Source: Catajapyx aquilonaris (Eukaryota). From it: a DNA stretch of 64,000 nt. The stretch lies in contig KZ537982.1 in the NCBI GenBank assembly GCA_000934665.2, forward strand, positions 62,001-126,000, read 5' to 3'. The notes beneath the pieces are model-generated. The model was not told the origin of the DNA. It did no database searches and worked only from the letters and a program-made list of their open reading frames with translations. Positions 7,370-62,200 of the stretch are shown here, one piece after another; the stretch's first letter is position 1; every line of letters starts with the position of its first letter. The position numbers and the translations under genes were made by a program.

Positions 7370-7434
7370 TATGCTAAATCAGGCAAATGGACTTTTATTT
7401 ATAACACACTCAATTTTCTCCAAATCTTTGGCAG

Positions 7435-8228
7435 GAATGACCATAATGCCAGCCAATGAGGATGTTGTGGAGGATGATGTCACCACTGTTTTGATCACTA
7501 TAGATCTGGTATGTAGTGAACAGGAGACTCTTTTAACACCGAGTGCAACTTTCAACAGTACTGTTGAAAAGGTTCAATCAACAAGAGAAGAAGAGAATGT
7601 GTTTCAGGCAGACTCCAACATCATCATAGAAGCAACACCTCTGTATGATTTGCAAACTGAAACTGTGCCAAATCCAGATGGTTCCATGACCCTCTTCACT
7701 TGTGATAAGTGTTACCAAACATTCGTCAGTAAAGAAATACTGGAGGATCATCTAAAGTCTCATGCACAAGAGAAACCTCACATATGCCAAATATGCAATG
7801 AATTGCTTACCACCAGTGGAAGTTTGTCAAAACATATGCAGAATCATTCTGGAGGTATGGCAAAACATTTGCCAATTCCTACTGGAAATAAGCCCACCTA
7901 CACTTGTAATGTCTGTGACAAATCATTTGACCTCAGAAAATCTTTACAAAAACACAAACTACTGCACACTGGAGAAAAACAGTGGACTTGTAACCTGTGC
8001 CCAAAGTTATTCTCTTCACTAGCTAATTTAAGGATGCATGGGTATACTCATTCAAACACCTCCTTCATATGCAAAGTATGCAACAGAGCATACAAATACC
8101 CTGGCTCTCTGCGGAGGCACAGGATAAAAGAGTCTCACTTTTTGACCAAAGCAGTACCAGAGGTAACCCGGGCAGGGAGGTCAGCTTTTTGCCACATCCT
8201 TCCTAAGTCAGAGCCAGTCGTGTGTTAG
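7435..8228 (+). CDS. C2H2 zinc-finger protein (5 fingers, acidic N-terminal region), main coding exon
   Basis: Acceptor ...tctttggcag| at 7434, in-frame ATG at 7437. Fingers CDKC..HLKSH, CQIC..HMQNH, CNVC..HKLLH-TGEKQW-CNLC..HGYTH and CKVC..HRIKESH. A possible upstream phase-1 exon ends ATG GAA G|gtgtgt at 2973-2979. A possible donor GAG|gtaacc near 8162 makes the 3' end uncertain. Confidence 0.85.
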
Positions 8229-43929: not shown

Positions 43930-46272
43930 CAGCAATGAGACAGCTAGCACCATGTGTTTGTGAGGTAGAAGAGAAACACTGACATTTTCCTTGGAAAAAA
44001 AAGTTCAAGAAATCGTGTTCGCAAATGTGCCATCGATCATGATACAATCCCAAAAAACCTCGCCCTCCCCACCACACGCAAAAAGGCTGTGCTCCTGATC
44101 ACTTCATAGAAGGAAGGAAAGAAATCGAAACACAACTCTTTATTTATTACCCGCTACTGCAACAAAAAAAGGACGATTTTTCCCTACCCCCCAAAGAGCT
44201 TTACTTTTTCACTGAGAAATTTTTTTTTTTCTCACCCTTACCCCTCCCAATTCTTTGTTCAAGCAACTGTTTAAGCATAACACAAAACATCACAGGTGTA
44301 AACTGTACAAATTTTTAAAACGGATGAAAGTGTTTTATGATCTCGTAACGTCTCGAAGGAACTATCGCTTCGAGTATTAGAATATGTAAGGAAATCATAT
44401 AGCAGAAAGAAAAAACAAAAAAATAGGACACTAAGGTGACTTTTTTTTCCCACTTGTCAACTTCCTGTGATGACAAACGAGTTTTTAGTTTGCGAAATCC
44501 ATGATGTGCCTCTTTAAGAAGAAAAAAATGGTAAGAAGACAAAAGAAGACAGGTGTCTTGTCAGTTTTCTCGGGCAATAATGAAAAAAGTGTAAGTCTAA
44601 GGAAGGGGACACAAGTTAGTGCTCCTTTTTTTCTTTTTTTTTTCGAAACCATCTCACTGCCATTTGTGTTCAGTGTGAGAAAAGTGTGAGTGAAGACAAT
44701 TGGGAACAAATGTGGACCAGATTTTTTTTTTCTCTCTCTCACCTATGGAATCAACTGTTTGCAAGATAAAGAAGTCACTCGATGGGAATATTTCAAGGAC
44801 TGTGATGTGTACAGTGAAGGTGTCCAGTTTTTTTTTTTTTTAATGTTTTGTTGATTGCAAATTGGATTATTTCGAATATTCATTTCAGATGCCGAATTGG
44901 TACATGTAATATTTTTGACAATTCTTAGACTAGTACTCAATCTGGCTTGATGATTTTCTTGTCCAATTGTAACCACTTAATTCAAATCATGGCTCCAATG
45001 TTGAGTATTGTTGTAAAATTGTTGTGATTTGAGTTATAGGATTATAGGAAATGATGACAGGAAATGGAATGAAAACCAATGGGAAAAAAAAAAAGATTGG
45101 TTGTAGAGCTTGTACAGGAAAATGTGGTTATAAGTCTATTGCATGGGAAAGAGATACCACCTTCTAATGGATGTGTAGTTGTTATGGTAATAGTCCGGAA
45201 TAATTTCCTATAATGACAGCCCTCACAGAATGAAATAAAAATAAATTATTGCATCCTTCACTAGGGAAAGGCGTCCATTTTGAGGAAAAATAAAATTCTG
45301 AAACGGAATAGCACAACAGTTTTTTCTTTGGTCTCTCGTGTTTAGGGTGAAGTGTAATGGAGTGGATCTTGCAAGAAAAAACAAAAGAATCATTGTCACT
45401 GTTTCAGCTAATCACTGCCAGGGTCTTGTGATAATATTTTTAAATATTTTTTTATTTTTTGTCCCCCCCTCCAATCCCTCGAGTCCGCCATTCCCCTCAC
45501 TGAATTTGTACCCACCTGAAACACACAGTGACTGCTCAAATTCACGTACATATTTTCTTTTTGCTTCCGGTTCCGTTAGATAATTTAAGGGTTTCTGTAA
45601 TGTAGTGCATAAAGATTTTAGGTGGGACGCCATTTCCACAGATCTTGTGTAGACATTTATTTCTTGTTCTTGTGTACATGAAAGGAGTTTAACCTTTTTT
45701 TTTTGTGGTTATGTAGAGATTTGTGCTTGTTTTCTTTTTAATACATGTAGATGTAATGCTATTTAAAAATTATTATGGATGATACCAGTATTTTACATTA
45801 TGACAAATGGAGTGAGGATATTCCCTCTTCAAGTGTGACTGCTTTCTCTCCAATTAAATAATGTAAAGTGAAGAGGGAACATGCTCACATTTCAGCAAGT
45901 TATTTGATCACGATAAGACTTCGGGTCCTGTCAAAAAAATGTGTGAAAGCGTTAAAAAGTTCACATGAGCATGACATTGGCTGCTACTGTGAGAAGTATT
46001 GATGGAAATATGGCGTTTTATGCTGTTTTTTCTTACACTAATTCCTGGACTAATGTGATTAAAATCAGGGCCTCAACCATAATCATGTCTATTATTATCC
46101 TTTACCTGTTTTTCACCGCCTCTTACACTTAACCAGGTGACAGTTGACACAAATGAGGCCGACAGGTGGCTGGATGACTGAAAATGTTCAGTGGTCATGA
46201 GAGCAGAGGGATGTCGCCCATGTCGGCAACCATATAAATGGACAAATGCACATGGGGTGGAATTTTCGTCGC

Positions 46273-46345
46273 ACTACTAGTTACTTTTAACTTAGCAATA
46301 CCAGTGTAATGTACTGCTAACTGTACGTTAAAAGTAACTAGTAGT
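46273..46345. repeat. Inverted repeat (decayed MITE core or hairpin) upstream of glycogenin
   Basis: actactagttacttttaac…gttaaaagtaactagtagt (19 bp perfect), with inner ttagca/tgctaa and weaker outer arms (atgcaca/tgtgcat). Confidence 0.75.
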
Positions 46346-46808
46346 ACTTACAATATTTCCAATGATATTGTGCATCAAGTGTGCCCACATGGCATTTGAA
46401 CTTGACGCCACATTCGCTGCTTCTCACACGAGCCGGCAGATGCCTCCTCCAGCAACTTCTCTTTGTTATGTCAATTTACAGCGTTGCCAGGTGAGTCCCC
46501 CCCCTCTGCAACAATCGGCCATCCCCAACAATTAAATTTAGTAGTCCAACCTGGCAGCAGGCCTCTTTCCGGCTTTTCCCCCTCCTCCCGCATTCAATGG
46601 CTGATTTATCCAAGCTGGAGTTCGGCTTGTCTCGGAGTGCGTCGGTCCTTGCCGAACGATAGATAAGAAGAGGGGAGGCTAAGGAGGGGGAGAGGCAAAG
46701 TGTAGTCACCAGCACCGCGACCCACTCCTTTTTGACCGGCCTCGACGGATCAGCACGGCCTGAGAACGTCGGTGCTGCTGAGAGGAAGACCACCCATACA
46801 CAGCAGCC

Positions 46809-49800
46809 ATGAGCAAAGGTAACGTCAAGGGGTCGGGGGATGGGTGACACCTGAGTTGGGGGCATTAGAAAAATATTGGAACAGTTCGGCGGGGCAGATG
46901 GGGTCAATTAGGGCTAATGAGGAAATGGAGGGGAGATGAGTCAACATGGATCAAGTGCACTGCCACAACAGCCAGCGGAGGAGTTACCTAAATGACATTT
47001 TTTAAAATGCATGTTAAGTAACCCGTGAGGATGTCAGCGTTGCATAAGGGAGGGCGATATGTCATCTCTGGCAGGGCACTGGCGTAGGTGAATTTCTGGC
47101 GTAAGGTGTGCATGCGGCTAAAGATATCCTTGGCTCCATCAAGGTGATCGTATTACTACTTAAAGTACCCATGCACACTTTGTCAAGGGACAGAAAGTTG
47201 GGCAGTGGGTCAACCAACTTGCAGGATGTTAATAAATTATTTAAGGAATATTCTGCATTACCTTGTTTCCACAATGTGCTTGCCCAACCACGTATTGTTG
47301 GAAATGTGAGGTGATTCAACTGATGATGATAGTTTTCAAGTCCAAAATTTTTTAAATTAATAGGGGTACTTCTGATGGATTGTGGAACATGGAGCCTTAT
47401 TACGAAGTTGCATGCAGACTGAAAGGGAGGCAAAAATAATTGGCGTTGTCATCATCTTATTGTTTGTCACATGTCACATTGGGTTGTACACACACAAGGT
47501 GCCATAATTATCCCCTGTCACCTCAGTTGTAATATAAAGGACATCAGGACACTCCTTTCACCTGAAATGAGCCAGACTACTTGGAACTTGACACCAGAGG
47601 ATAGCAATGTTTTGTAGCATGTATAGGAAAATATTTTACATGCAAGAATTTGGCTAGGTGTGTGAAGCATGTGGCAGTTTATGACACTTTGGCATTGGTT
47701 TTACTACGTGGTGGTGTGGCTGACCTTGCGCGCCTTGGCCAATGAGGCCAGTGGCAGGGTTTTATGCAGGCAGGGATGGACAGGTTTGACAACTCCTAAT
47801 ATGGTGAGCTCTTCATTCACATGGGACTAAAAGTGTTGAGTGGAATTTCTAGTGAGCCAACTAATGCTTTGCCACGAGAACAACGTGTCTGGCAGGTTCA
47901 ATGTCAAGTGCAACAAAGAAAATAAAGATATATTGCCAGTGCCTCAACCTTTCAAATGCGACATGTAAAGTATGTTATATCAATGAGAATCTCAAAGACT
48001 ACACATCCAAAGTTATTTTTGCCATCCTGTGAAACATTTGGCACATGCTTACCTCTGCCTTTTGTTTTCAAGTGATGACAGTGTTGCTAACTTCTTGTAT
48101 TTCTCATCAAAGGCCAAGCATGGGTGACACTGGCAACAAACGACTCCTATGCCATAGGTGCCATAGTCTTGGCCCACTCCTTGAAGAGGGTGGCCACAAC
48201 CCGCCCTATTGTCATCATGGTCACCTCTGGAATCACACCACCCATGAGGTAACGATCTCCATGATGTCAGTGACCCTAGTTTTACCTCCATGCTTTGACT
48301 TTCAGGGAGCTTTTGACCGGCGTGTTTGACGTGGTCAAGGAGGTGGACGTGATGGACTCTCATGACGAGGCCAACCTAGCACTCTTGGATCGTCCAGAGT
48401 TAGGAATCACCTTCACCAAGCTACATTGCTGGCGTCTCAAAGATTACAGCAAGTGTGTCTTTCTCGATGCGGACACCCTGGTAAAGTTGTCCAGAGCAGT
48501 TCTAGGAAGTTGCATGGTAGATTTTTGGTAATCTGCATAAACTGTGTGGCACTTATGAATTTATAACTCTGTCAGGTTGCCAACATTCAGTGTATATTTG
48601 GACTTCTATAGATGCATTTTTTGTAGTGGAGGCTGGAAGGGAGATAAAGGCAGGCAGAAACATTCTTAACTTACAGTGGGTTTCCAGTATGTTTTAATAC
48701 TTACGTGGGATGGTATTTGGTTGCTATTGCGCCTCTCCATGGGGGGAGTTATTTAAAGGTTAGCTATTTTTGGGGCAGGCTTGCTGCACGTGCCAAGAAC
48801 GAGGTGGAGGAGGAATTGGCAGTAGTTAGTTGGCACTGAGGCCCATTTTTGGGGGGAATGCGGAAATGGGAGTTTTGCCCCCCACCTTCCTCATTAACAC
48901 CATGAATAGATGGCAGGCACACATTACGTGCTAATACAGGGTTGGGTAAGGGACAGTGCAGTAACACTTATCTATGCCCACTTATCTGTATTGCAACATG
49001 GGAGTTTTTAGTTGTTTGGTTTAATGGAGCCACCTGTGTGAGGGATTATTGGGAATTATATGCTTTGCACTTCTCATTTGCCAAGTTACAAATGACTAAA
49101 GGCATATGATGCCTCTAGGGATCGATGCTGGGTACATAACCAGAGTTTTGTTTACTTTTGTTCTGGTTGTATCTGCATTTGCTAAATGGAAAAATGTCTT
49201 ACAGAGCACATGTAGCACTCGGTTAAATCGTGATTAGTTGTTGAAAGGTAATTGAGCACGAAGCTTTTACTCTGTATGCAATTGTTTGTTTATACTGGTG
49301 CATTATCACCACAATTTACAGTAACTGCAGTTATGCCATTGCATGATAAAGTTGTGCCCTTGACCAAGTCCTTAGAACGACAGGACTTTTGACCTTGATC
49401 AATGGTCTCTGTAATGATAAAGTGTGGTAGGGACTGCTGCCTAGTCATGAATCAATGAGGATTCTGGAAACAGTCCTTGGTCATGTTTGCAAAGTGGTAC
49501 AAGCAGTAATCTCAGCCATATCCCATATCGTTTTACTTGAGGTTTCATCCCCAGTTGCTCATGAAAGACACATCTGCAAGAGAGGAGGAGAGAAAACAAT
49601 TATCTGGCTCCCCTAACATTTCAAGAAAATGTTCACAGAAATTAGGGGTATTAATGGAATGAGAGGTGTTATAACATGTGATAATACATATTTGTAAATA
49701 GCATCACTCACAGTCAGTACCATCAATAGGCTTATTGCAACAGAGATATCGGATGTAGTGTACTGTACCACGCTCCGAATTTTTAAAGCTACAATTTGCA

Positions 49801-52800
49801 TCATCGACACATTCCATATTCATATACCTGGAATTTTTCTTCCATACCATTCCTTACCATGTATTTCCATTTTCATTGCATTGGTCTAGCACAGATACTG
49901 CAATGCACACTTTTCCTTGCAGGTGGTGGAGAATTGTGACGAACTCTTTGACCGTCACGAGTTTTCTGCTGCTCCTGATGTGGGCTGGCCTGACTGCTTC
50001 AACTCGGGAGTATTTGTGTATCACCCCAGTGACACAACATACCAGGGGCTGTTGAATCTAGCAATGACATCTGGCAGCTTTGATGGTGGTGACCAGGGGT
50101 TGCTGAACATGTACTTCGGTGGTTGGGCAACTGAAGAAATCTCGAGGCATCTGCCCTTCATCTACAATATGGTCGCCACGGCAGCCTACTCTTACTTACC
50201 TGCATTCAAACAGTGCGTGCATGTTTGTTGAAGGTGTTGGTTGCTATTTCTAACATTTCTACTGGGCCTGCAGAATAATTTATACATTACCGATTTGACA
50301 AAGAAGGTGTCAATAAAAGCACAATATTGTGTAGGATTAAGACATTCAGAGAAAACATGGCATCATTTGGTGCCTGTGAAGTTATTGTATCACTTTGTCC
50401 AAAAATTACTCTGCAGGGTTCAGTACGGAACAATTGTGACAGAGTTATTCTTTGAGAATTCCAGTTGGAACTCAGGATCTCTCAGATTAATTTTTCCATG
50501 GTTAGCCAGCTGTATTTTATATCTGCGCTGTCCTAATTCACATAATGGTAGTGAGCCTCGTTTTGTTTGCTGCTGTTTTGTTCCAAAAATGCATGAGGAA
50601 GAGAGGACACATTTCATTCCATACAGTTAAGAAATACAGAGTTTCACATTTTTTTCTCACTTTATTTTTTGAGGTTTGCATCTCAAGTGAGGATTGTCCA
50701 TTTCATCGGGGCAAACAAACCCTGGATGCAGTTCTACGACTCAGTTACTGGGACAGTTAGACCAGGTCCTGACGAGGTACATCTACAAGGGTTCCTGCAG
50801 CTCTGGTGGGATATCTTCTGCTCCAGAGTCCACGAGCACCTACGTACAACAATGGTCAGTCACAGGCAAATTCTCCCAGAGAGGCAGTGGGATTTTCAGA
50901 GGAGATTAATATTGGGCACACATTTAGATTCAGTAAACCTTCATTATTTCAGTTCTAGAATTTGCAATTCCAGTCACAGTTTTCTTACATCCTATTAATC
51001 TAATTTTATGTCGCGGTTGTCAGGAAATTGCTGTAATTTGGTACCAAGTGAATGATAAGTTGTTGACTATGAGGCACTGACTGGCATGCCAAATCGTGAA
51101 CTGAGGAATATCACAGATCAGGTGTTAACATTGTTTAGCGTGGGAGGCGCTGAAACTACTTCAAACATATTTCCCACTCTGTAATTTATCAATGCGGTTT
51201 TTCCAGGATGTCATAGCCATCCTGCACTGTTTTGATCACGTTGTTCAACATAAAGATTATCAGCACTGAATTGTTGAAGGTTTACTAATTAATCGTGCCT
51301 TTGCTGATAGCATAAGTGGTGCAGCTACATGTTGGGCTAGTACAATGGAAAGAAATTGTAGATGTTGAGTTGGAATTTGCCTCTGTTTGTTGCTGCAAGT
51401 TTTCATCGGGATACCATCAATATTACATAGGTTTTGCAACATCAGCATTAGTGTACACGTTAAACAGAGGGACATTTTGACTCATGTACAGGTTATAGTG
51501 TTGGGTACATAGTTGGTGCAACTAACATGGTTGAAATTTTATGGGAAAATTGTTTACTCTTGTTAATGCAAGCCGGTTATGGACCTCCTGCCTTGCTGCG
51601 AACCGCAGGTAGTCATGTCAAGCATGCTGGCAAAACTGGATTGATGCATGCATATTTTGTTATGTTGGTGGTAGCTTTTTATTGATCACTGTGGAGAGAG
51701 TGCTGGGAATATAGCATGGACAGAGACTTGTGTCTGTCTTAGCAGTATTGTTCTGCTCTTGGTGTCTCACATTGTGTTGGCAGCGCAGGGTTTTAAGAGA
51801 GAAAATGATAGAGCAATTGTTGGTATGTTGTGGGTGGAGTGATTGCGTTTCGCTTGCGGGCTTTGCAGAATGATGAAAATTTGTGGGAAAGTGGTAAAAT
51901 GGGAGACAAGGCAACATTTTTCTTAATTTGCATTTCTTCCTATGCACCACCTGGGCCACAGCCAACATTCCCTGAACTTATGTACGAAAGTACCCATCAG
52001 CAAGCTGAACACATTCACTCCAAACAACATTCCGACAGTCACGAATCTAGTGTCAACCGACATACTGAGCCACATTATGGCAATCAGCCGTATGAGGAGA
52101 ACCAGTGGCATCAGCATGCATCTCATTCAGACCAGTCTGAAAGTTCTCAGGAGCAATATGGCAATACCTTGCACTCGCAACATCATTCTGATCAGCATGA
52201 TGAGCATCATAGTGGAAGCCATTCTTTCAGTCCTTATGAGAAGCACACAGAGAGCCACTCTGATCAGCCTTATGAGCAGTATACACAGAGCCACTCTGGT
52301 CAACCTTATGAGCAGCACACACAAAGCCATACTGGTGGGCATTATGAGCAGCAAGCAGGAAGCTATTCTTTCAAACATGATGAGTGGCATTCACAACCCA
52401 CTGGCAGCCATTCTGCTGACCAGCATTTAACATGTCATGGCGATAATTCCGGGGCCAAGCAGACTAAGCCCGCAATACCCAAGAAGCCAGCTGACCCACG
52501 CCTCCGCAAGTTGGCATGGGAAATGGGCATGGCAGACTACATGGGTGCAGATTCCTTTGATAACATTCTTCTGAAGATGGCTGAGTCAGGGGTGGGCCTG
52601 ACATTGGAGACTCCAAAGACAGACCTGGATCTAAGGCTGGAGGACAGGGTTCGAAAAGCAGCTTGGGAGAGAGGGCAGGCAGACTACACAGGGCGGGATG
52701 CCTTCAGCAACATATTAGGAAAGATTGTGGAGGCAGGAGTCGGGGTAGTAGTGGATGGGCCACTGAAGACTATGGGAAAGCCCAGGACAGGGACTCAGAG

Positions 52801-54972
52801 TAAAGGTCAGGAGGCGCATAAGAAGTTCTGGGATGATGATGAGGAAGACGAGGATGACGGAGGCGAGCTGGATCTGCTCTGAAACTGTATTTTGAAGCGT
52901 TTTTTTCAAGGATATTTGGGGGTATCATTGTATCTTGTAGTGATACGACTTTGATATTATTGTTTGTACAAGACTGAGGTGAAAGTTGCTCAATTGATGA
53001 TTATTATCATGAGGTCGTAACAAATCACTGCACATGTAACATGTGTGCACAGGTCTTGTCTTTTGTTATTGACCATGTTGCGAACAAGTTAATAAATACG
53101 CTGCCAGCATGATGTTTTGCTTCTTCCCAGCACTCTCTCTAAGTCTATGTAAAATTGTTTCTTTGACTAGCATGAGTTGCATAAAGGTACAGTAGTTGGT
53201 GATGAATATATGAGAAAGCATATTTGCTTCAGTGTGTAGTCAAGTTTAGATCTCCACAGTTCTTAGTGACACGTTTCCAAGGGATGAATATTGGATATAC
53301 ACTAATTGCACAAAAAAGAAAATGGAATTCTTGTGCACGCTCACGAGATGTTGCCTTCACTGAAGGGCACTGCTTGTACTTAGGCGCGCTGATTCCACCA
53401 AGTGATAGACAATGTCCTTTTCATGCCATGCTTTTAGTTCAGTGGTTTCTGACTTCCCAAGGGTGTGGTTTCCACAAGAAAAATTTAATTATTTGAATAA
53501 TTGTACTTTCATAATCTACTATTGAAAAGAAAGATCTGAGACCATGTTAAAATGGCATTGCTGCTCCAAATATAAGCAATGGAATCTGTTAAGTTGCATT
53601 AATGAATATACAGGAAAACTTCTAAGTCGAATCTGCATGGGACCGGGAAAAAACTTCGCGTTATAGAAGATTCGGGTTAGAGAAGTTTGAAAATTTTGAA
53701 GCACATAACTCTATAAGGAAACCTACCTTTATACCCAGCGACGAAAGGTGTTCATAACTTGAAAATAACTATCACTATCACACTTACAATGTTCCTCGCT
53801 GTTTTGTTGTGAAAAAATCTCCATTATGGACATTTGCCTACTCTTAGACTCAAGGATTCAATTGTCACAATCGAGTCAAACACTTCTTTCGGTACATCTG
53901 GTTGACGGAGATCAGGAAATTGAGCCTTCCTGTACATGTGGCCTACTCTCTACCCTTCGGCTGGGAAATGAGAAAATTTTCCGTACTTGCCAACATGAAC
54001 TTCGACTTAGGGAGACTGAAAATGCATTGACATCCCATAGTAAGGCCCTGCCTGCACTTCGAGTTATAGAAATTCGAGTTAGGGAAGTTTATTTCCTATT
54101 ATTTTACATTAAGACCAACCAAGCTCAATTTTCTACGACTTATAGAGAACTTGGACTTAGCGAAGTTCGACTTAGAGAAGTTTCACTGTACATAGCATTA
54201 AATTTAAAATGATATTGCTTGCATTTCAATAAAGTGGATCAACTAGGTTCACATATTAGGGTAGCATGACAGTACTGCTTCCTGCACAAAAAAAAAACTG
54301 ATGACAATTTGTGAACAGATAAGTGCTGCTTAGCTCCCTGTCTGGTTGAGTAACATTTGAAAGATATTGCACATTGCAGTTACACCTTTTACGTAAGAGC
54401 TTAGTGTATGACAGGGTAGTAGAGTGAGGCCAAAAATTCAAAGTGGAGAGTAGCAGCCCCTTTGAGGCATTGTAAGTCAACCTTCTGTTATGTTTTTTTA
54501 TCACTTGCATGTCTGACCCTAAGATCCTGCATGCCATTCAGTAGGAGATGTCAGGAATGGAATTCCTGCCACCTCTTGCTGAGCACACCGGGGGTTAAGA
54601 TTGTGCCTCTACTTCTGGTGACGAAGCACATGGTTTCAATGCAATGACGATGCTTGCTTTATTCAGGGAGGAATGGCAGCTACCTTGGCAAGAATGAAGC
54701 TTGGAAAAGACATGAGCCCAGAAGAGATTAGCTTGCAACGGAAGGCTATGTGGGAGATGGGTCAAATGGACTATACCGGGGAGGATTCCTTCACTAACAT
54801 CATGAACAAGCTGGAGGAGTCTCTTCAGGGTGCCCCTCCCGCATTGCCAGGAGTTCCCCCGCCCTGCCCCCCATCCAGGCCCTGTGTGCCCACATGCCCT
54901 TGTGCCAGACGACAGGCTGCTATAAAGAAGGAGGCGGAACGGAAGGAGGCAGAACTACAGGAACCCCAGTGA
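46809..54972 (+). CDS. GYG1: Glycogenin (GT8 self-glucosylating initiator of glycogen), short-linker isoform, ~365 aa
   Basis: Exons 46809-46818 (ATG AGC AAA G|gtaacg), 48113-48248, 48306-48480, 49923-50212, 50674-50854 and 54667-54972; phases join. Motifs: [84 protein letters not shown] (acceptor Tyr), [10 protein letters not shown], and the C-terminal glycogen-synthase-binding [27 protein letters not shown] at 55036 and 55221. Confidence 0.92.
51962..52882 (+). CDS. GYG1: Glycogenin alternative terminal exon (His/Gln/Ser-rich linker plus two glycogen-synthase-binding motifs; isoform ~570 aa)
   Basis: Phase-0 acceptor ...gggccacag|CCA at 51961/51962, after a pyrimidine tract, fits the phase-0 donor at 50854. 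The 306-aa open frame contains [21 protein letters not shown] and [21 protein letters not shown]. It has its own AATAAA at 53091. Confidence 0.8.
   Translation, partial: PTFPELMYESTHQQAEHIHSKQHSDSHESSVNRHTEPHYGNQPYEENQWHQHASHSDQSESSQEQYGNTLHSQHHSDQHDEHHSGSHSFSPYEKHTESHSDQPYEQYTQSHSGQPYEQHTQSHTGGHYEQQAGSYSFKHDEWHSQPTGSHSADQHLTCHGDNSGAKQTKPAIPKKPADPRLRKLAWEMGMADYMGADSFDNILLKMAESGVGLTLETPKTDLDLRLEDRVRKAAWERGQADYTGRDAFSNILGKIVEAGVGVVVDGPLKTMGKPRTGTQSKGQEAHKKFWDDDEEDEDDGGELDLL
52232..52375 (+). repeat. 36-nt (12-aa) coding tandem repeat, about 4 units
   Basis: Units start ccttatgag/cattatgag at 52232, 52268, 52304 and 52340: [48 protein letters not shown]. Confidence 0.85.
53611..54188. mobile_element. 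Tigger/pogo-like MITE between the two glycogenin terminal exons
   Basis: TA|CAGGAAAACTTCTAAGTCGAA… and …TTCGACTTAGAGAAGTTTCACTG|TA, with repeated subterminal ttcgacttag/ttcgagttag motifs. Confidence 0.7.
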
Positions 54973-55482
54973 TTCCTTGTTCCAAGCACACGATCCCTTG
55001 GGGCAGAATTATGCAAAAGAAGCCGATCACAGACGAATAAAGTTTATATCAGATAGGCATGGAATTTGTACAGAAAGTTGTTTAATAAGAGAGCAGATTG
55101 GCCTCTAGTTTTTTGGAAAGGTCAGCATGGGCCTGTTGACCTGCTGGGAATCTGTCACTAATTTGGAAAGAAAAGGGGTGGGAAGAAAGAGTGTTGTTAC
55201 AATAATTTGCTACTGGTTACAATAAATTGCATGTGCCATATTGACAAATAGGTGTTGCTTAGCAAGGAGGATTCTTTTCAGCCCCACAATGCAGAGGTAA
55301 GCCCTTACTATGAGGACATTGGGAACAGTTTTTTTTTTTTTTAAATGAGACGGGGCAAATTGGCAACAGCGTGCGCGCTTCATCTGGCCACTCTTTCTCC
55401 CTGCTCCTCCGATGTTGACCTGGCAACCTCCACTTTTCGCAAATGGTGGCCGTGGTGGCGACTACCATGGAAGCAGCGACCG

Positions 55483-56131
55483 ATGCCGAAGTCCAAAGAC
55501 CCGTGTAAACCATTCGCCTGCGAGTTGCAAAGGTGTCTCGTCGGTAAGTGAAGCAGCCTCGTCGTCTTCCGCTGGACTCAACCTGGCCATTGAAATGAAA
55601 TTGCGCATGAAAATACCCGCACAGGTCGTGTTGGAGAAATTGAAGTGCTTTTTTTTTTGTACTCCACCTGTATTGATCTTGGGGTTGGGCATGGTTGGAA
55701 TGTAATTTGCCCCCACACGATGAAATTCTTATTATTAATATTATCATCATATTCATGACGTGTTCCTAACTAGCAGTGGAGCATGTTCTTCACACGGCTT
55801 GTTTCCATGGCAACCTCCTGCCATGGACAAACAAACGAACAAACTATTCCTTATATGTGTGTAAGGTAATGATGCTGTTGAAGTAGAAAATGACAATGTG
55901 TAATTTCTTTATCTTATCGCTTTATTACTTTGGATTTATTTTCATACGTTTCTTTGGTTTTTATGTGAAGATCATGACTACCAAGAGTCCAGATGTGTTG
56001 AAGAGGTGAAAAGGATCTTGGAGTGCTGTGACCTTTGGGGTGAAAGTAGTGGATCTATGACTTGCTCTGGATTTTGGATCAACCGACCAGGGGAACCACC
56101 TAGGAAGCCCACGAAACCTGATAGTAAATAA
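55483..56131 (+). CDS. CMC4: Cx9C motif-containing protein 4 (CMC4 / p8-MTCP1), 73 aa, 2 exons
   Basis: Exons 55483-55543 and 55971-56131 (phase 1). MPKSKDPCKPFACELQRCLVDHDYQESRCVEEVKRILECCDLWGESSGSMTCSGFW… matches the CMC4 pattern MPxKDPCxxxACExQxCLxxxxYxESxCxxxxxxxxxCC…CSGF. Confidence 0.88.
55801..55814. promoter_or_regulatory. RFX X-box consensus
   Basis: GTTTCCATGGCAAC, a 14-bp near-palindrome matching the RFX X-box, in the CMC4 intron. Confidence 0.45.
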
Positions 56132-56506
56132 AGTGGAGGTCAGAGGTTGTGTTGAATCATTTTAATGCAATTTTGAGTTCATATCTTTTTTTTAAAAAAT
56201 GCAGAACACCTCAACCTATTTGTCATTTGGAGTAGTAAGCGGTTCTCAAAAGTCGAGGTTGTCAGACTTGATTGCTGCAACTTGAAGGTATAAATTTTTA
56301 TTTTATGCATTCATTTTATTTTTTTCTAATGTCACTCTTACTGTTAGTAAATTATTATTATGAAGATGGGCTCTAGCAAGTAATATTACATCATGAGGTT
56401 TCTATTATGTTGATGAGATATTTGAAGGAAAATAAACATTGGGTCAGACAATTCACACTTCATTGTCCATTTTGAAGTGAAAAGAACCTTCTTCTCAGGT
56501 GATGCC

Positions 56507-56701
56507 ATGCCTGGTCCGGGACCTCGTCCATCCCCTGTGGTGAGGAAGGCTGCCTACATCACTGCAAAGCGTAGTTGGCGGCAACGCAACCCACGCCTCT
56601 TCACTTCATTATTTGTGGGCGGCTCCCTCTTGGTGTTATTCAGTCGCCCCTTGTATGATGGCTTCATAAGGGACATCCCACCTGCACCAGCCCCCAAATA
56701 A
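56507..56701 (+). CDS. Uncharacterised 64-aa single-pass membrane microprotein
   Basis: ATG in gccATG context 8 nt after the acceptor cttctcag| (56498). MPGPGPRPSPVVRKAAYITAKRSWRQRNPRLFTSLFVGGSLLVLFSRPLYDGFIRDIPPAPAPK has a basic, acid-free N-half, a hydrophobic stretch (LFTSLFVGGSLLVLF) and a Pro-rich tail. Its GC content is coding-like against an AT-rich upstream flank. Confidence 0.6.
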   Translation: MPGPGPRPSPVVRKAAYITAKRSWRQRNPRLFTSLFVGGSLLVLFSRPLYDGFIRDIPPAPAPK

Positions 56702-56708
56702 ACTTTAC

Positions 56709-56906
56709 ATGGAAGCAGTGAAGCGAGCAAAGACCCGCCTTGGAATGTACCCAAAGGTCTTGGCTCAGTGTGGGCCTCAGGCAACAACATATGCACACTG
56801 TGTAGCCACTCATGAAGATTTGCCGAAAGGTGCATGTGACAAGGAATTCCAGGAGTTCAAGGAGTGCTTGAAGAGTGCCGCTAAGAAGATGAACACTCGC
56901 CTGTAG
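56709..56906 (+). CDS. NDUFAF8: NADH:ubiquinone oxidoreductase complex assembly factor 8 (twin CX9C), 65 aa, intronless
   Basis: MEAVKRAKTRLGMYPKVLAQCGPQATTYAHCV…GACDKEFQEFKECLKSAAKK has two CX9C motifs and the NDUFAF8 pattern RLxxxPxxLAxCGxxAxxYxxCV…CxxEFxxxxxCxxxAAKK. Confidence 0.88.
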   Translation: MEAVKRAKTRLGMYPKVLAQCGPQATTYAHCVATHEDLPKGACDKEFQEFKECLKSAAKKMNTRL

Positions 56907-57005
56907 AGAGGGTTTGGGATAAAATCGGAGTGTTACTTAGAATTTAGTAGTAGTTGTACTTTAGAGACAGCCAACTAGTCAGCCATATCATAAAAGACAG
57001 CCAAC

Positions 57006-58217
57006 ATGCATATTGGCTATCATGTTGCGCTGGGCTTTGCCCTTCGCCTAGCCCTCATTGGATATGGAGAATACCATGATCGCACCTCTGCAGTGAAGTA
57101 CACTGACATCGATTACCATGTATTTGTGGATGCTGCTCGCCACATGAGCGAAGGGAATTCTCCGTATGCACGCAGTACCTATCGCTACACACCCTTACTG
57201 GCCTGGTTACTACAGCCTGCTGTGTGGGGACATTTTGTTTTTGGCAAGGTCCTTTTTGCAGCAGCAGATGTCTTAATTGGATTCCTCATTCATGTGCTGG
57301 TGTGCATGGAGTCACCTCGCATAAGGTGGGCAAAGTGGTGGGCTCAAATGGCTGCTGCCTTATGGTTGTACAACCCTCTCCCAGCTGTGGTGTCAACAAG
57401 AGGAAATGCAGAATCTGTAGTGGCAAGTTTGGTCTTGGGTATGCTTGTCCTGTACCGGAGCAAGGTGTTTGTACTGGCTGGTATATTGTATGGATTGGCA
57501 ATCCACTTCAAGATATACCCACTTGTGTACGCACTTCCTTTGTACTGGTCCTTATCTAATGGGGGTTGGAAGTCACTATTCAAAATGAACACGGCCCAGT
57601 TTCGCTTGGTTCTAGGCACTGCTGCCACTCTGGTCCTAGTCACCCTTGCATTCTATTCACAGTACGGGGATGATTTTGTTAAGGAAGCATACCTGTACCA
57701 CGTGACCCGCAGGGATATACGTCACAACTTTTCTGTCTACTTCTACTTCCTCTACCTGACAACCGAGTGGGAGTCTTCCTTGCTGGCCCTCCTGCCCTTC
57801 CTGCCTCAGTTGGCTCTTCTGATAGCAGTGGCCTTCTATCACCACACCCCGGAGGACCTTCCTTTCTGCCTGTTCTGCCAGACATTTGTGTTCGTTGCTT
57901 TCAACAAGGTGGTCACCTCCCAGTACTTCCTGTGGTACCTCTCCCTCCTTCCAGTCTGCCTCCCATTCCTCCACTTCTCCCTCCTCGAAGGCGTAATCCT
58001 GGTATTGATATGGTACTTTGCACAAGGGTCCTGGCTTCTCCCTGCTTACTACCTGGAGTTTGAAGGGCGCAACACATTTCTCTATGTCTGGCTAGAAAGC
58101 ATAGCTTTCTTCTGCGCCAACATCGGGATACTGGCCCGAGTCATCAGGCGGTACAAAGGGACACTGGTGGTCCACGACCCTTGTTCTCACTCGCATCCAC
58201 ACCCAAAGTCAGACTGA
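57006..58217 (+). CDS. PIGM: GPI mannosyltransferase 1 (PIG-M), 403 aa, intronless
   Basis: VKYTDIDYHVFVDAAR (DxD), SPYARSTYRYTPLLAWLL, FGKVLF, WLYNPLPAVVSTRGNAES, HFKIYP, YLYHVTRRDIRHNFSVYFY, FVFVAFNKVVTSQYFLWYL, WLLPAYYLEFEGRNTF; multi-pass hydrophobic. AATAAA at 58314. Confidence 0.96.
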   Translation: MHIGYHVALGFALRLALIGYGEYHDRTSAVKYTDIDYHVFVDAARHMSEGNSPYARSTYRYTPLLAWLLQPAVWGHFVFGKVLFAAADVLIGFLIHVLVCMESPRIRWAKWWAQMAAALWLYNPLPAVVSTRGNAESVVASLVLGMLVLYRSKVFVLAGILYGLAIHFKIYPLVYALPLYWSLSNGGWKSLFKMNTAQFRLVLGTAATLVLVTLAFYSQYGDDFVKEAYLYHVTRRDIRHNFSVYFYFLYLTTEWESSLLALLPFLPQLALLIAVAFYHHTPEDLPFCLFCQTFVFVAFNKVVTSQYFLWYLSLLPVCLPFLHFSLLEGVILVLIWYFAQGSWLLPAYYLEFEGRNTFLYVWLESIAFFCANIGILARVIRRYKGTLVVHDPCSHSHPHPKSD

Positions 58218-58688
58218 TGTGCTTGCTGTCTAGTGCGTATAATTGGTCACGTTTGTAGTAAATGTTGGGTTAGTTTTCTACTGTATTTCTGGCTGTCCTT
58301 TCTAGTACTGGAAAATAAATGTGATATTGTGACCCGCATGTCTCTGTAGAATACATGTCATTATCCTGCAGCAGTTGTCCATGGTGTAGCACAGTGTGAA
58401 CAGATTTGAACTTCCCGGCTTGCTCTCTGCTGGTTTGCAATTTGGCCAGTAGATGTCGCTAGCTCCAACCCGTCCTTACCAGTTGGGCTGCCATCTGCCG
58501 GCCATCCCCGCCGTCACTCGTGCGCTACTTTCCACCGGCGGAGGCACCCATCGCCAAGAGGGTGAGAGGTCCCGAAGGCGGGCACGGTTTGGGATTCGGT
58601 CTGGCAGTAAACATAGTGAAGTCTCAGGAGGAAGGGGTTCGGGCTGCTCCTCCTCCTCCGAGTGGTGTCCACCAGTCAATCCCCGAAG

Positions 58689-59281
58689 ATGGCCAGCGGT
58701 GGGAGCGTGTCCCCGACCGGGTCGTCCGGCGTGGGAGGATCTGCCACCAACAGCCCGCAAGATATGGTGCTGGACCAGCAGTCGCAGCAGAACAAGGGCA
58801 ATCAGGTGGTGCACATTAGGGGCGACTCTGACTCCGAGCTGCAGGCCCTCTTCGACTCAGTGCTCAAGCCGGACTCTAAACGCCCTCTCCAAGTCCCATT
58901 GAGGATGAGGAAGCTGCCCAACTCATTCTTCAACCCTCCAAACACTGGATCCAAGTCGCCCTCCGTGTCCCACAGCAGGGAGAACAGCTCTGATGGGTTC
59001 GGCACGGGGACGACCACCAGCACAACCACCTCGGGGCCGCCCATATCCTCATCGGGACTGCCAATACACCACCCGAGGGCGCACAGCTCCCCAGCCACCC
59101 TCCAGCAGACCTACGCGTCCGCACAGCAGTCCTCCACGTCCCAGCAGCAGCCTGGTGGACCTCAGGGACAGCCCCCACCTGCCTCCGGACACATCAAGTC
59201 CCACAGCTACGACCTGGCAGACGACCTGCCCTTCGGATGGGAACAGGCCAGGACGCCAGAGGGACAGGCCTACTTCATCAA
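58689..59281 (+). CDS. yki: Yorkie/YAP transcriptional coactivator, first coding exon (gene continues beyond the window)
   Basis: TEAD/Scalloped-binding domain GNQVVHIRGDSDSELQALFDSVL…QVPLRMRKLPNSFFNPP. LATS/Warts motifs HSRENS and HPRAHSSPA. Start of WW domain LPFGWEQARTPEGQAYFI. Donor AA|gtaagt at 59281/59282. Confidence 0.95.
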
Positions 59282-62200
59282 GTAAGTCCAGCAAGGTGCA
59301 CCACCGTTCGTAATGGCCGCGCGGGACAGGCGCGCAAACGCAAAACTGGAAGCGAAAGCAGCCCGGGGGACATGAAAGCGCTTTCGTAACACTCAAACGG
59401 ACACTCTTACTTCAGACATTGGCACCCCTGATCTGTTCACTAGTGCCAATGTCGCCTGAAGGAAAGCCGAACCGGATTTATGGACGATTTTTCTGGACAA
59501 CAATCAGGATATACGCCAAGTTTCCGCACAGATTTTACACCAAAAAATTGCGCGCATATACACCTGCATTGGCATTCAGGTGGGGGCTCCCCTGCACCTG
59601 CACCCACCCTGTATTCAGGCAAAGCAACGGAGCATAACCGTACATTAATATTCATGATATGGTGGCTTGATTTAATTCGGGTGCCCAGCAGCATCCACCA
59701 TTTTAGTCTAGCCACAAAATTTTTGGTCTGACCTCCGCCCTCGGTTTAACTCAACCCTCCTCTCTTGGGGTCTGTGTTGGTTCCTTTTGTCCCTCACTTC
59801 ACTCCACCCTCTTCAATCACGCCCATACTGCTCTGGCATTACAAAGCGAGGTCGACGGACTCACTAATTGCGCTAGATGGGAACCAAAGACATATTGCCA
59901 ATGAAAGAGAAGCGACGATTGCTGCTTACACTGTTGTCGCCCTTTGCCTCCTTCTGGATGCAAAGGCAGAGCGAGGATAGCATTTAAATTAATATTAATC
60001 TTTTCTGGTTTACTTATGCTAGCATCAATTTTAGCGCCATCATTTGTGTGTATAACTAATTTTATAAGGACCAGTTTTCTCTGTACCCATGATGTATTTT
60101 AGACAAGTTTATCTGCTCAGTAAAAACCTGTCTGCATAGAAATCCAAGAAAAATTATTTTACTGGACAAGTTTCCATTTATGACAAACTACCACTACTAC
60201 AACAACAATTTAATTGTCAAGTTTCATACGTGCAGTACTGCAGTATGTGCACTGCCGGTTAAAAATAACGCCTAATTAGCTAATAGCAATAACATTCACG
60301 GCATAAGAAACGCTTAATGGAATTGGTGGCGGGATTTTGTGACATGCATCAAAATTTCCCGAGTCGAGCATACGCCCATTTTTTTATATATAATCCGGTG
60401 CAACGACCTATAGGCATGTACGGGGTGGTGTCGTCACTCCGGACAATTTGCAAAATAGATGTAGCAACCATGGTGTTCTTGCTGAGTAGCCTGAACGCTC
60501 TCAGCATTAACTGTAATCTGGTCCTAATAATGTTTTGACGCCACAGCTCCCCCCGAGTGTGGCCGCGAAACAGATGGTCCAGATGACGGCATCCACCATG
60601 AGCCAAGAGAGAATTTTCAAATTGCACATTTTTTTAAAGGGGACAACCATTGCTGCGGTTACCACTTTGGGCAATTGCTCCAGGTCGTACAAAAAAAAGA
60701 GAGCACTCAAGTCCCCCTGTACATAGAGTTAACAAGGGTTTCCCCATCTCATACTTGACTCGTTTATTTTTGGCCTGCTGACCCTCGCAGTCTGGACTCA
60801 TGCTTCCGACTCTCTTGCCATTTATGTACAGGCTTACAGGTTGTGTAGTACGGGTTTTTCGGTGTTGTGGAGGCTCGTCTTCGACACCGTTCTCTAGGGT
60901 ACAGACGTGGGATTGGTCCCAAGAATAGGGCTGGGATTTTACCACCTGAAAATTTTTGTGAGTGCTTGGAAAGGACTGAAGTGCATTCACGTGTAACCAG
61001 ACAATCCTCGTCTCACGGGAAGTTTCCGACTATCGCACTGGGGTTGAGAAAGCTGGGCTGGAGCCACGTACTCTGGACTGTCAATATCCTACTATCAGTT
61101 TAGATATTGGTGGGTTGACAGGTGAAAAGTCTGTTGCTCCAGGGGATGTGTACGCCCCCGTACTGTCCCCCGAAACTTCCAAAAAGTGGCAGGGAGGTCC
61201 TATCCGGAATAAGGGGGGAGCCGAGCCCAAAATAGGTGGGGCAATTTTTAGATTAGCATTTCTCTTGTTTGTATGGAGAGTGAGGCTGTGGGACGTGGAG
61301 CTGAACGTACCCCCAGAATGACGACGTGAACGCGCCCGGTACAGTACAGGGTCCAAATAAGGCCACATTACAACTTATACTATGTACGTTTAATATTCAA
61401 CGAACTTCACACAAAAAAAAATATCTAACGGGTCTCACCTAATGAGGTACACGTTCCAAAAAGGTCATACCTTGACACCTGCCAGCGTCCTAAATAAGTG
61501 CTGTAAAATGTCTATTCGTTACTACCTTCCTGCCCAGGAGCTCGTTACACTCTTTCCTTGAAGTGGAACGGGTGAGTAACAGTGGAACGATTTAATAAGA
61601 TTTTTAGGAGGGGGGGGGGGGTGTAGGCCCACAAAATGGCGGCTTAAGCTTCACACACTTGATACGCACTTGAGCTATTTTCGGGGGGAGAGCGAAGTCT
61701 GGTGAAAGTAATTAGACACCCAGCCGAGATCCGCTTTGGGAGTTGAGGGTATACCATTTGTACCGTTGGTCAGTTCGCAAGTTTAGACCTGTTTAGACCC
61801 CCCCAGAAATGGATACCCAGTTTGGGTTTGGAAGGTCGAGAAAAATTGAGTTTGTATCCGGGGTCGTGGTGGTGACCATGGGAAGGTCACTGCAGGTTGA
61901 CTGTTTAGATACGCCTATCGTGGGACTGACAGCCAAGCGTGTAGGGAATAACCTGTTGCGAGCAGTGGGAATCGAGGCATTGGGTGTGAAAATTTTTATA
62001 TGGGTTTTTGGGTATCTGTGAAAGTATCCCGCTGTATTGGCACGCGACTTGAAGCGCTCGAAATTGATATCTGAGCAATTTTTTTTTTACTCTGCAAATG
62101 AATAAACAGACGCAAAAAAATATTGTCGCACTGTATCCATGTGGTGTCCCGCGACTTGTTGTTTATCCTAGGCGAGTACATTAACAATAACCTGCACCTG

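What the first reader, a model, noticed from the sequence alone, without database searches (positions are those of the whole stretch)
50854..55226. Glycogenin alternative last exons swap linker length and number of glycogen-synthase docking motifs
Seen: after the catalytic exons (phase-0 donor at 50854) there are two phase-0 terminal exons, each with its own stop and AATAAA. Exon A (51962-52882) places the first WExGxxDYxGxDxFxNIxxK motif 185 aa downstream and a second copy 49 aa later. Exon B (54667-54972) has a single motif only 28 aa downstream. Established: this C-terminal motif is the glycogen-synthase-binding peptide, and glycogenin linker length has been linked to glycogen particle size. 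Inference: an isoform switch could tune granule size or synthase stoichiometry, and the tandem motifs could bridge two synthase subunits or tetramers.
Basis: partly seen in the sequence, partly recalled or inferred. Interest (0 to 1): 0.72.

Follow-up and report, generated by a model that had tools for sequence, protein, structure and literature searches.

The report
Glycogenin gene with two alternative endings
An arthropod-like glycogenin gene makes two transcript forms: one last exon gives a short tail with one glycogen-synthase docking motif, the other a long histidine-rich tail with two, a new twist on a known design that could help test how this tail shapes glycogen granules.

Summary
Five catalytic exons of a glycogenin gene (+ strand, ATG 46809) end at a phase-0 donor at 50854. 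Two phase-0 terminal exons follow, each with its own stop and AATAAA.

- **Exon A (51962-52882):** 306 codons, a His/Ser/Gln-rich linker, then two docking motifs at residues 186 and 235.
- **Exon B (54667-54972):** 101 codons, one motif at residue 29.

**Splicing:** intron-skipping contigs of the one public run that holds this DNA carry both junctions, 50854>51962 (word depth 18) and 50854>54667 (depth 515).

**Motifs:** all three match the glycogen-synthase-binding C-terminus of glycogenin in solved complexes. Between copies, synonymous sites are near saturation while the motif residues are kept. So exon A is old and constrained, not a chance ORF.

**Relatives:** exon B matches the standard arthropod module, 49% identical to a wasp glycogenin at the same position. 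Two-motif ORFs occur elsewhere: 6 of 17 library hits, one a barnacle "Glycogenin-1" fragment.

**Untested:** synthase binding by each motif, granule-size tuning and bridging. The tether between the two motifs is only about 12 residues in a model, which argues against spanning one synthase tetramer.

Verdict: a real new variant of a known kind, of moderate interest.

The parts
46809..46818 (+). Glycogenin exon 1, coding part (ATG AGC AAA G); the 5' UTR reaches back at least to 46673
   Evidence: Sequence. Contig record 1 covers 46673-46813 and is joined to exon 2 by the joint 46813>48108, GT..AG with the cut shifted by 5.
48113..48248 (+). Exon 2, N-terminal part of the GT8 catalytic domain ([10 protein letters not shown]...)
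   Evidence: Frame and splice sites; joints 46813>48108 and 48246>48304.
48306..48480 (+). Exon 3, holds the DxD motif (FLDADTLV)
   Evidence: Translation; Pfam Glyco_transf_8 at E 0.0036, which is below the curated cut-off because this is a single exon piece; joints.
49923..50212 (+). Exon 4, catalytic core with the acceptor tyrosine ([10 protein letters not shown])
   Evidence: phmmer to human and rabbit glycogenin-1 structures at E 1.1e-41; query Y89 aligns to residue 195 in 7q0b numbering.
50674..50854 (+). Exon 5, end of the common region, with a phase-0 donor ATG|gtcagt
   Evidence: The joint 50212>50674 and both outgoing joints are. The five exons sum to 792 nt, or 264 codons.
51962..52882 (+). 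Terminal exon A coding part (306 codons plus TGA), giving a 570-residue isoform
   Evidence: Joint 50853>51961 at depth 18.4; contig record 3 covers 51961-53109 with 0 other letters.
51962..52489 (+). His/Ser/Gln-rich low-complexity linker (176 residues: 28 S, 28 H, 22 Q, 16 E)
   Evidence: Composition count; no Pfam family.
52227..52353 (+). 36-nt (12-residue) tandem repeat, 3.5 copies, inside the linker
   Evidence: Tandem Repeats Finder, 82% matches, score 154.
52517..52576 (+). Docking motif A1 ([20 protein letters not shown])
   Evidence: phmmer aligns query 13-42 to glycogenin-1 residues 299-328 of 7zbn_E at E 4.5e-5. Helix-turn-helix in the model.
52664..52723 (+). Docking motif A2 ([20 protein letters not shown])
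   Evidence: phmmer aligns query 66-88 to 4qlb_G residues 5-27 at E 2e-4. Helix-turn-helix in the model.
52826..52879 (+). Acidic C-terminal tail specific to isoform A ([18 protein letters not shown])
   Evidence: Translation; function unknown.
52883..53109 (+). 3' UTR of exon A, with AATAAA at 53091-53096
   Evidence: Contig record 3 stops at 53109, 13 nt after the signal ends. A contig end is only a hint of an RNA end.
54667..54972 (+). Terminal exon B coding part (101 codons plus TGA), giving a 365-residue isoform
   Evidence: Joint 50853>54666 at depth 515.2. 49% identical over 59 columns to residues 278-336 of a wasp glycogenin, starting at the exon's first residue.
54751..54810 (+). Docking motif B ([20 protein letters not shown])
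   Evidence: phmmer aligns query 17-54 to the last 38 residues of glycogenin-1 at E 6.9e-5, and to 4qlb_G at E 2.5e-4.
54973..55248 (+). 3' UTR of exon B, with AATAAA at 55036 and 55221
   Evidence: Contig record 4 ends at 55248 and runs on into 11 A's (loose end).

Best explanation
This is a glycogenin gene, the self-glucosylating GT8 primer of glycogen synthesis, with alternative last exons. One donor at 50854 is spliced either to the nearer exon A, which uses the poly(A) signal at 53091, or past it to exon B, which uses the signal at 55221. Splicing to B gives the standard 365-residue protein: a 264-residue common part, a 28-residue spacer, and one helix-turn-helix synthase-docking module. 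Splicing to A gives a 570-residue protein: a 185-residue disordered His/Ser/Gln-rich spacer, two docking modules 49 residues apart, and an acidic tail. Shown here: the exon structure, both junctions in transcript contigs, the match of all three motifs to the solved synthase-binding peptide, and the long-term conservation of the motif residues. Inferred: each module can dock on one glycogen synthase subunit, so isoform A holds synthase on a much longer leash and offers twice as many docking sites per glycogenin dimer. That would raise the local concentration of sites, and might link separate synthase tetramers. Exon B is the main form in the one sample seen, and exon A is a minor form.
For: Gene identity: exon 4 matches glycogenin-1 structures at E 1.1e-41 with the acceptor Tyr aligned, and the DxD motif is in exon 3. 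Splicing: all 8 joints listed have GT..AG ends. They include 50853>51961 (depth 18.4, side 29 plus 1 ambiguous letter) and 50853>54666 (depth 515.2, side 28 plus 2). Side plus ambiguous letters equals 30 in both, which I read as a k=31 assembly graph breaking at a true branch point. Exon A's depth is about 8 times that of the unspliced read-through contig (record 2, 50826-51264, depth 2.31). There is no cover in 51376-51759, just upstream of exon A. Each exon has its own AATAAA, and the contigs end 13 nt (A) and 22 nt (B, then an A run) after the signals. Motifs: searches give E 4.5e-5 to 2.5e-4 against the glycogenin C-terminus in 7zbn, 7q0b, 8cvx and 4qlb_G. The alignment columns invariant across 13 sequences (W, G, D, Y, G) are present in all three copies. 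Constraint: over 31 codons around the motif, the proportions of synonymous and non-synonymous differences are 0.92 and 0.34 (A1 vs A2), 0.93 and 0.39 (A1 vs B) and 0.69 and 0.38 (A2 vs B). In the 18 codons after the motif they are about equal: 0.62 and 0.51, 0.82 and 0.66, 0.68 and 0.69. Fold: AlphaFold2 on a 13-row alignment gives helix 15-23, turn, helix 32-44, then helix 57-72, turn, helix 81-93, with block pLDDT of 73-84 over the motifs. This matches the helix-turn-helix described for the solved peptide (PMC9188544 and PMC9287172 passages).
Against: Only one run holds the locus. Its kind is not on record, and I infer that it is RNA from the intron-skipping contigs. The junction contigs carry 28-29 letters on the exon-5 side, under the tool's 31-letter rule for 'bridging'. 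Contig depth is a poor measure of level, so the 18 versus 515 ratio is rough, and it is also what one would expect if A were splicing noise. No ortholog of exon A could be fetched: three word-index searches found nothing, and the best library hit scores only 49.7 bits. No binding test could be run, because no glycogen synthase of this organism is available. The model's overall confidence is modest (mean pLDDT 64.6), and Foldseek found no PDB match for it.
Confidence: 0.75

Rival explanations
1. Exon A is a relic or low-level splicing by-product. A duplicated terminal exon is still recognised now and then, but its protein does nothing that isoform B does not do.
For: Word depth is 18.4 for exon A against 515.2 for exon B in the only run. 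No ortholog of exon A was found. The linker is low-complexity and partly a recent-looking 36-nt repeat.
Against: A 306-codon frame is kept open, and it is the third longest frame in the window. Synonymous differences between motif copies are near saturation, while the motif's fixed residues are intact in both exon-A copies. The exon has its own poly(A) signal and a contig that ends just after it. Two-motif ORFs recur in 6 of 17 library hits.
Confidence: 0.13
2. Exon A belongs to an independent transcript that starts in the intron. Its product would be a catalytic-domain-free protein with two docking motifs, acting as a decoy for glycogen synthase.
For: An in-frame Met lies 7 codons into exon A. 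16 of the 17 library hits are ORFs without a GT8 domain, though these are most likely exon-level gene calls.
Against: The exon-A contig begins with the last 29-30 letters of exon 5, joined at a GT..AG boundary. Depth is 0 in 51376-51759, upstream of the exon.
Confidence: 0.03
3. Both isoforms are real, but the second motif does not add a second synthase. The two copies are alternatives, bound one at a time (rebinding, higher effective affinity), or one of them has moved to another partner.
For: In the model only about 12 residues (piece residues 45-56) lie between the last helix of A1 and the first helix of A2. The four peptide sites sit at the four corners of the synthase tetramer (PMC9287172 passage). 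That such a short tether cannot span two corners is my inference and was not measured.
Against: Both copies keep every residue that is invariant in the alignment. Nothing here measures binding.
Confidence: 0.4

Closest known systems
Human glycogenin-1 (GYG1) isoforms GN-1 and GN-1L
   Same: GT8 catalytic domain with the acceptor Tyr, a variable linker and a C-terminal synthase-binding helix-turn-helix. Splice isoforms differ in linker length: the same terminal peptide sits at 296-333 in the 333-residue chain and at 313-350 in the 350-residue chain. The isoform names appear in the PDB titles and in the PMC9287172 methods.
   Different: The human isoforms share one terminal motif and differ by 17 residues. 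Here two mutually exclusive last exons each bring their own motif or motifs, the spacer differs by 157 residues, and one form carries two motifs.
C. elegans GYG-1 C-terminal peptide bound to glycogen synthase (PDB 4QLB) and the linker-length experiments cited with it
   Same: Motifs A2 and B align to the peptide chain 4qlb_G at E 2e-4 and 2.5e-4. PMC9188544 reports that linker length governed particle size in vitro (their reference 22).
   Different: The linker lengths in that work were engineered. Here nature supplies two lengths from one gene. I could not read the original paper, which is not held.
Polistes canadensis glycogenin-1 isoform X2 (XP_014604133.1, P0018)
   Same: Exon B is 49% identical over 59 columns to residues 278-336, starting at its first residue, directly after the common region. 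The GT8 domain is confirmed.
   Different: The wasp protein has a single motif followed by a 570-residue tail. No two-motif form was seen in this record.
Amphibalanus amphitrite KAF0287417.1, a 146-residue 'Glycogenin-1' fragment (P0003)
   Same: This is the best library hit (E 3.3e-8, 49.7 bits). It has two motif copies 67 residues apart, and the second closely resembles A2.
   Different: It is a fragment without a catalytic domain. It ends 7 residues after the second motif, and nothing is known about its splicing.
Human glycogenin-2 (GYG2)
   Same: A long-linker glycogenin (501-residue chain 8z0a_E) with the same terminal peptide. A separate form has been linked to particle assembly (PMC12267440 abstract and passages).
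   Different: It is encoded by a separate gene, not made by a splice choice, and has one motif. The match to exon B is weak (E 0.0074).

Membership tests
Glycogenin (GT8 self-glucosylating glycosyltransferase) | GT8 / GT-A catalytic domain | tested here: met
   Exon 4 matches glycogenin-1 structures at E 1.1e-41 over 94 residues. The Pfam Glyco_transf_8 hits on single exons are sub-threshold (E 0.0036-0.014, below the curated 24.3 bits) because each query is only a piece of the domain.
Glycogenin (GT8 self-glucosylating glycosyltransferase) | DxD metal and UDP-glucose motif | tested here: met
   FLDADTLV is read in exon 3. That this is the catalytic DxD is from established knowledge of GT8 enzymes.
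Glycogenin (GT8 self-glucosylating glycosyltransferase) | Acceptor tyrosine (Tyr195 of human GYG1) | tested here: met
   Query Y89 in ...[10 protein letters not shown] aligns to residue 195 in 7q0b numbering (query 3-96 to chain 109-202). The role of Y195 is stated in PMC9188544.
Glycogenin (GT8 self-glucosylating glycosyltransferase) | C-terminal synthase-binding peptide of about 34 residues | tested here: met
   Three copies are present. E-values are 4.5e-5 to 2.5e-4 against the peptide in 7zbn, 7q0b, 8cvx and 4qlb.
Glycogenin (GT8 self-glucosylating glycosyltransferase) | Self-glucosylation and physical binding to glycogen synthase | not testable with these tools
   This needs the protein, or at least the organism's synthase sequence. 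No genome is held.
Alternative-last-exon gene architecture | One upstream donor joined to two different terminal acceptors in transcripts | tested here: met
   Joints 50853>51961 and 50853>54666 are both GT..AG, in contigs of one run. Caveats: the exon-5 sides are 29 and 28 letters, and there is a single run of unrecorded kind.
Alternative-last-exon gene architecture | Each terminal exon has its own stop codon and polyadenylation signal and site | tested here: met
   Stops at 52880 and 54970; AATAAA at 53091 and at 55036 and 55221. Contigs end at 53109 and at 55248, the latter followed by an A run. A contig end is a hint, not proof, of a cleavage site.
Alternative-last-exon gene architecture | Regulated (tissue- or state-specific) choice between the exons | not tested
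   Only one run was available, and no RNA holder is listed.

The most novel reading that the evidence does not exclude
The two-motif isoform is a switchable scaffold. A glycogenin dimer carrying four docking modules on long, histidine-rich, possibly pH- or metal-sensitive leashes recruits or cross-links more glycogen synthase than the standard 4:4 complex allows. Turning on exon A would then change granule size or clustering, from beta-like towards alpha-like particles. Two-motif terminal exons would be a widespread and so far undescribed feature of invertebrate glycogenins.
Probability: 0.2. Interest if true: 0.7.

Novelty: new variant of a known kind. Interest (0 to 1): 0.45.

Why it matters
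How glycogenin's variable linker, and the ratio of glycogenin to synthase, set the size and shape of glycogen particles is an open question. The papers I read state that the function of the flexible linker is "yet to be explored" (PMC9188544), and that how particle size is regulated across tissues "remains largely unexplored" (PMC12267440). This gene offers a natural pair of proteins with the same catalytic domain but a 28- versus 185-residue spacer and one versus two docking modules. That is a ready-made experiment. If two-motif forms are common in invertebrates, as the 6 of 17 hits suggest, the textbook picture of one docking peptide per glycogenin chain is incomplete.

Tried and rejected
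- **Word-index protein searches:** exon A at near and longer lengths, and exon B at longer lengths, found nothing at E <= 0.001 (3 of 3 used). The motif is short and the linker is low-complexity.
- **Sequencing runs:** no RNA holder is listed. One run of unrecorded kind holds 0.41 of the sampled words. It was laid.
- **ESM Atlas** on the exon-A C-terminal part gave no usable hit.
- **Foldseek** of the model against the PDB gave no match at E <= 10. This is expected for two short helix pairs in a modest-confidence model.
- **Promoter/terminator scan** uses bacterial consensus patterns and says nothing about a eukaryotic intron, so I disregard it.
- **Own genome:** not held. No glycogen synthase of this organism was available and complex prediction was not run, so binding remains open.
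- **Papers not held:** the 2014 structural paper on synthase recruitment and a 2015 review. What I say about them comes from citations in PMC9188544.
- **Earlier scan notes:** nothing relevant.
- **Literature on tandem motifs or alternative last exons in glycogenin**: I found no such description in the titles and abstracts listed. 'Glycogenin' together with 'alternative last exon' gave 0 papers. The library lacks most subscription papers, so this does not prove the arrangement is unpublished.
- **A three-motif form made by splicing from inside exon A to exon B:** 8 phase-0 GT sites exist in exon A, but none of the 8 listed joints uses one, so I did not pursue it.
- **Independent transcript for exon A:** rejected, see rival explanations.
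Full report
**What is in the sequence.** The + strand between 46.8 and 55.2 kb carries a glycogenin gene. I read five common coding exons from the frames and splice sites:
- Exon 1: ATG at 46809, ending at 46818.
- Exon 2: 48113-48248.
- Exon 3: 48306-48480.
- Exon 4: 49923-50212.
- Exon 5: 50674-50854.

Together they make 792 nt, or 264 codons, and end in phase 0. Exon 4 matches solved glycogenin-1 structures at E 1.1e-41, and the acceptor tyrosine is aligned: query Y89 corresponds to residue 195 in 7q0b numbering. Exon 3 carries FLDADTLV. Pfam hits on the single exons point to Glyco_transf_8 but stay below the curated cut-off, as expected for pieces of a domain.

**The two terminal exons.** After the donor ATG|gtcagt at 50854 there are two phase-0 exons.
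- Exon A (51962-52882) has 306 codons and a TGA stop, with AATAAA at 53091.
- Exon B (54667-54972) has 101 codons and a TGA stop, with AATAAA at 55036 and 55221.

The motif W-E-x-G-x-x-D-Y-x-G-x-D-x-F-x-N-I starts at exon-A residues 186 and 235 and at exon-B residue 29. A looser form of the pattern occurs three times in the six-frame translation of the whole window, only at these places. About 1e-6 occurrences are expected by chance, and 100 shuffled windows gave 0. The predicted proteins have 570 residues (isoform A, motif W at 450 and 499) and 365 residues (isoform B, W at 293).

**Are both exons used?** One public run holds this DNA, with 0.41 of the sampled words. Its kind is not on record and no RNA holder is listed. 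When it was laid on 46000-57500, its contigs skip introns. All 8 listed joints have GT..AG ends, and 4 of them are the introns I had predicted between exons 1 to 5. I therefore treat the run as transcript-derived.

Two joints leave exon 5:
- 50853>51961: depth 18.4, on a 1178-letter contig that covers 51961-53109 with no differing letters.
- 50853>54666: depth 515.2, on a 642-letter contig that covers 54666-55248 and then runs into 11 A's.

The exon-5 side of these contigs is 29 and 28 letters, with 1 and 2 ambiguous letters. That is 30 in both cases. This is below the tool's 31-letter rule for a bridging record. It is also what a k=31 assembly graph gives when it breaks at a true branch, which is my inference.

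A third, thin contig (50826-51264, depth 2.31) reads on into the intron as unspliced RNA or DNA. Depth is 0 in 51376-51759, so nothing suggests a separate start upstream of exon A. No joint leaves exon A for exon B, although 8 phase-0 GT sites exist there. In this one sample both forms exist, and B is roughly 28 times deeper than A. Contig depth is a poor measure of RNA level.

**What the motifs are.**
- Exon B aligns to the last 38 residues of glycogenin-1 in the synthase complexes and apo structures (E 6.9e-5 to 7.8e-5), and to the 36-residue C. elegans peptide chain 4qlb_G (E 2.5e-4).
- In the exon-A tail, motif A1 aligns to glycogenin-1 residues 299-328 (E 4.5e-5), and motif A2 aligns to 4qlb_G residues 5-27 (E 2e-4).

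Passages of PMC9188544 and PMC9287172 describe this peptide as the minimal synthase-binding region. They report a helix-turn-helix that binds one synthase subunit each, in a 4:4 complex, at the four corners of the tetramer.

An AlphaFold2 model of the last 142 residues of exon A, built on a 13-row alignment, has mean pLDDT 64.6. It gives two helix-turn-helix units, helices 15-23 and 32-44 and helices 57-72 and 81-93, with block pLDDT of 73-84 over the motifs and a disordered tail. Foldseek found no PDB match for this model.

**How old and how constrained.** I compared 49-codon units around the three copies.

| Pair | Motif segment, 31 codons (synonymous / non-synonymous) | Next 18 codons (synonymous / non-synonymous) |
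|---|---|---|
| A1 vs A2 | 0.92 / 0.34 | 0.62 / 0.51 |
| A1 vs B | 0.93 / 0.39 | 0.82 / 0.66 |
| A2 vs B | 0.69 / 0.38 | 0.68 / 0.69 |

The values are proportions of differences. In the motif segment synonymous sites are saturated or nearly so, while non-synonymous change is much lower. After the motif the two proportions are about equal. The copies are therefore old, and selection has kept the motif in all three, including both copies in the minor exon. The comparison is between paralogous copies within one genome over few codons, so it is suggestive rather than a formal test.

The residues after each exon-A motif also resemble each other ([14 protein letters not shown] against [15 protein letters not shown]). 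Exon A therefore contains an internal duplication of a unit of about 49 residues (output). The linker before the motifs is 59% H, Q, S, E or Y and includes a 36-nt repeat of 3.5 copies.

**Relatives.** The word-index searches found nothing. A full HMMER scan of 1.84 billion representatives with the exon-A tail gave 17 proteins at E <= 0.001, the best at 49.7 bits. By my reading of their sequences, 6 of the 17 carry two motif copies: P0003, P0005, P0007, P0008, P0009 and P0019. A regular expression caught 5 of these and missed the first copy in P0007. The query itself has two copies, which favours such hits.

Only 1 of the 17, P0018, has a GT8 domain. The rest are short ORFs, most likely exon-level gene calls, so their being glycogenin ends is inferred from the motif alone. 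Of the 10 I looked up, 2 carry names:
- P0003 is a 146-residue barnacle fragment that UniRef names Glycogenin-1.
- P0018 is a paper-wasp glycogenin-1 isoform X2.

Exon B aligns from its first residue to the wasp protein at 278-336, 49% identical over 59 columns. In the multiple alignment, the stretch between A1 and A2 lines up with the same "...TLG...RK" lead-in found in the single-motif insect sequences. My reading is that exon B is the standard arthropod docking exon, and that A2 with its lead-in is an old copy of that module with A1 added in front. The nearest PIG-M clusters for the neighbouring gene are mostly arthropod, which fits an arthropod origin but is weak evidence.

**How it most likely works.** This is an alternative-last-exon choice. 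If the acceptor at 51962 is used and the transcript is cleaved after 53091, the long two-motif form results. Otherwise the exon-A region is removed as part of a 3.8-kb intron and the standard form results.

By a crude count, both acceptors have 12 pyrimidines in the 20 positions from -23 to -4, against 13-18 for the constitutive exons. Nothing in the sequence tells me what controls the choice.

The functional step is inferred. A longer leash and double the docking sites should change how synthase is held near the growing chain.

Bridging two subunits of the same tetramer looks hard. Only about 12 residues separate the modules in the model, while the sites lie at the tetramer's corners. I did not measure the distance. 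Rebinding or avidity, or linking different tetramers, seems more plausible.

**Comparison with what is known.** Linker-length isoforms of glycogenin are known in humans. The same terminal peptide sits at 296-333 in the 333-residue chain and at 313-350 in the 350-residue chain, and the isoform names GN-1 and GN-1L appear in PDB titles and in PMC9287172. A long-linker paralog, GYG2, has been tied to particle assembly (PMC12267440).

What is different here is that the ending itself is swapped, the spacer differs by 157 residues, and one ending has two docking modules. My literature searches turned up no description of tandem docking motifs or alternative last exons in glycogenin. However, the key 2014 structural paper and a 2015 review are not held, and I saw only listings for most hits.

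**Verdict.**
- The splice-isoform interpretation is supported by one run.
- The functional consequences are open.

It is a new variant of a known kind, of moderate interest. It provides a natural test case for an open question, but it is an incremental change to a well-understood design.

Noticed in passing
window 55480-58214 (+): Directly after the glycogenin poly(A) site, transcript contigs join 55542>55970 and 56136>56497, and a 1867-letter contig runs on from 56497 into the PIG-M frame. This stretch holds three ORFs: a CMC4-like Cx9C protein split over two exons (PF08991, E 0.0026 and 3.5e-6), a second twin-Cx9C/CHCH ORF at 56709-56903 (weak Pfam hits), and an intronless GPI mannosyltransferase PIG-M at 57006-58214 (PF05007, E 3.5e-80). 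It may be a single mRNA with three reading frames, but contigs across genes do not prove one transcript.
   Followed up: partly
window 53650-54200: The intron between exons A and B holds repeat-like DNA with short 15-16-nt tandem arrays. It is covered at depth 57-106 by contigs that carry differing letters and loose ends. These look like transcripts of other copies of a dispersed repeat rather than part of this gene.
   Followed up: no
window 52826-52879: Isoform A ends in a strongly acidic tail ([18 protein letters not shown]) that has no counterpart in exon B or in the library hits I read. It might be a sorting or interaction signal, but this was not tested.
   Followed up: no
window 39585-43554 (+), 7314-8228 (+), 58620-59285 (+): Neighbouring genes. 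There are large exons of a JmjC-domain protein with a long poly-Gln stretch (PF02373, E 1.5e-11); I recalled it as KDM6/UTX-like but did not test that. There is also a C2H2 zinc-finger ORF, and a YAP/Yorkie-like exon with a TEAD-interacting loop and the start of a WW domain.
   Followed up: partly
window 12000-36000: GC skew stays positive (0.07-0.25) across about 24 kb. No long ORF explains it, and I did not examine it.
   Followed up: no
window 48249-48305: The intron between exons 2 and 3 is only 57 nt. It is confirmed by the joint 48246>48304.
   Followed up: yes
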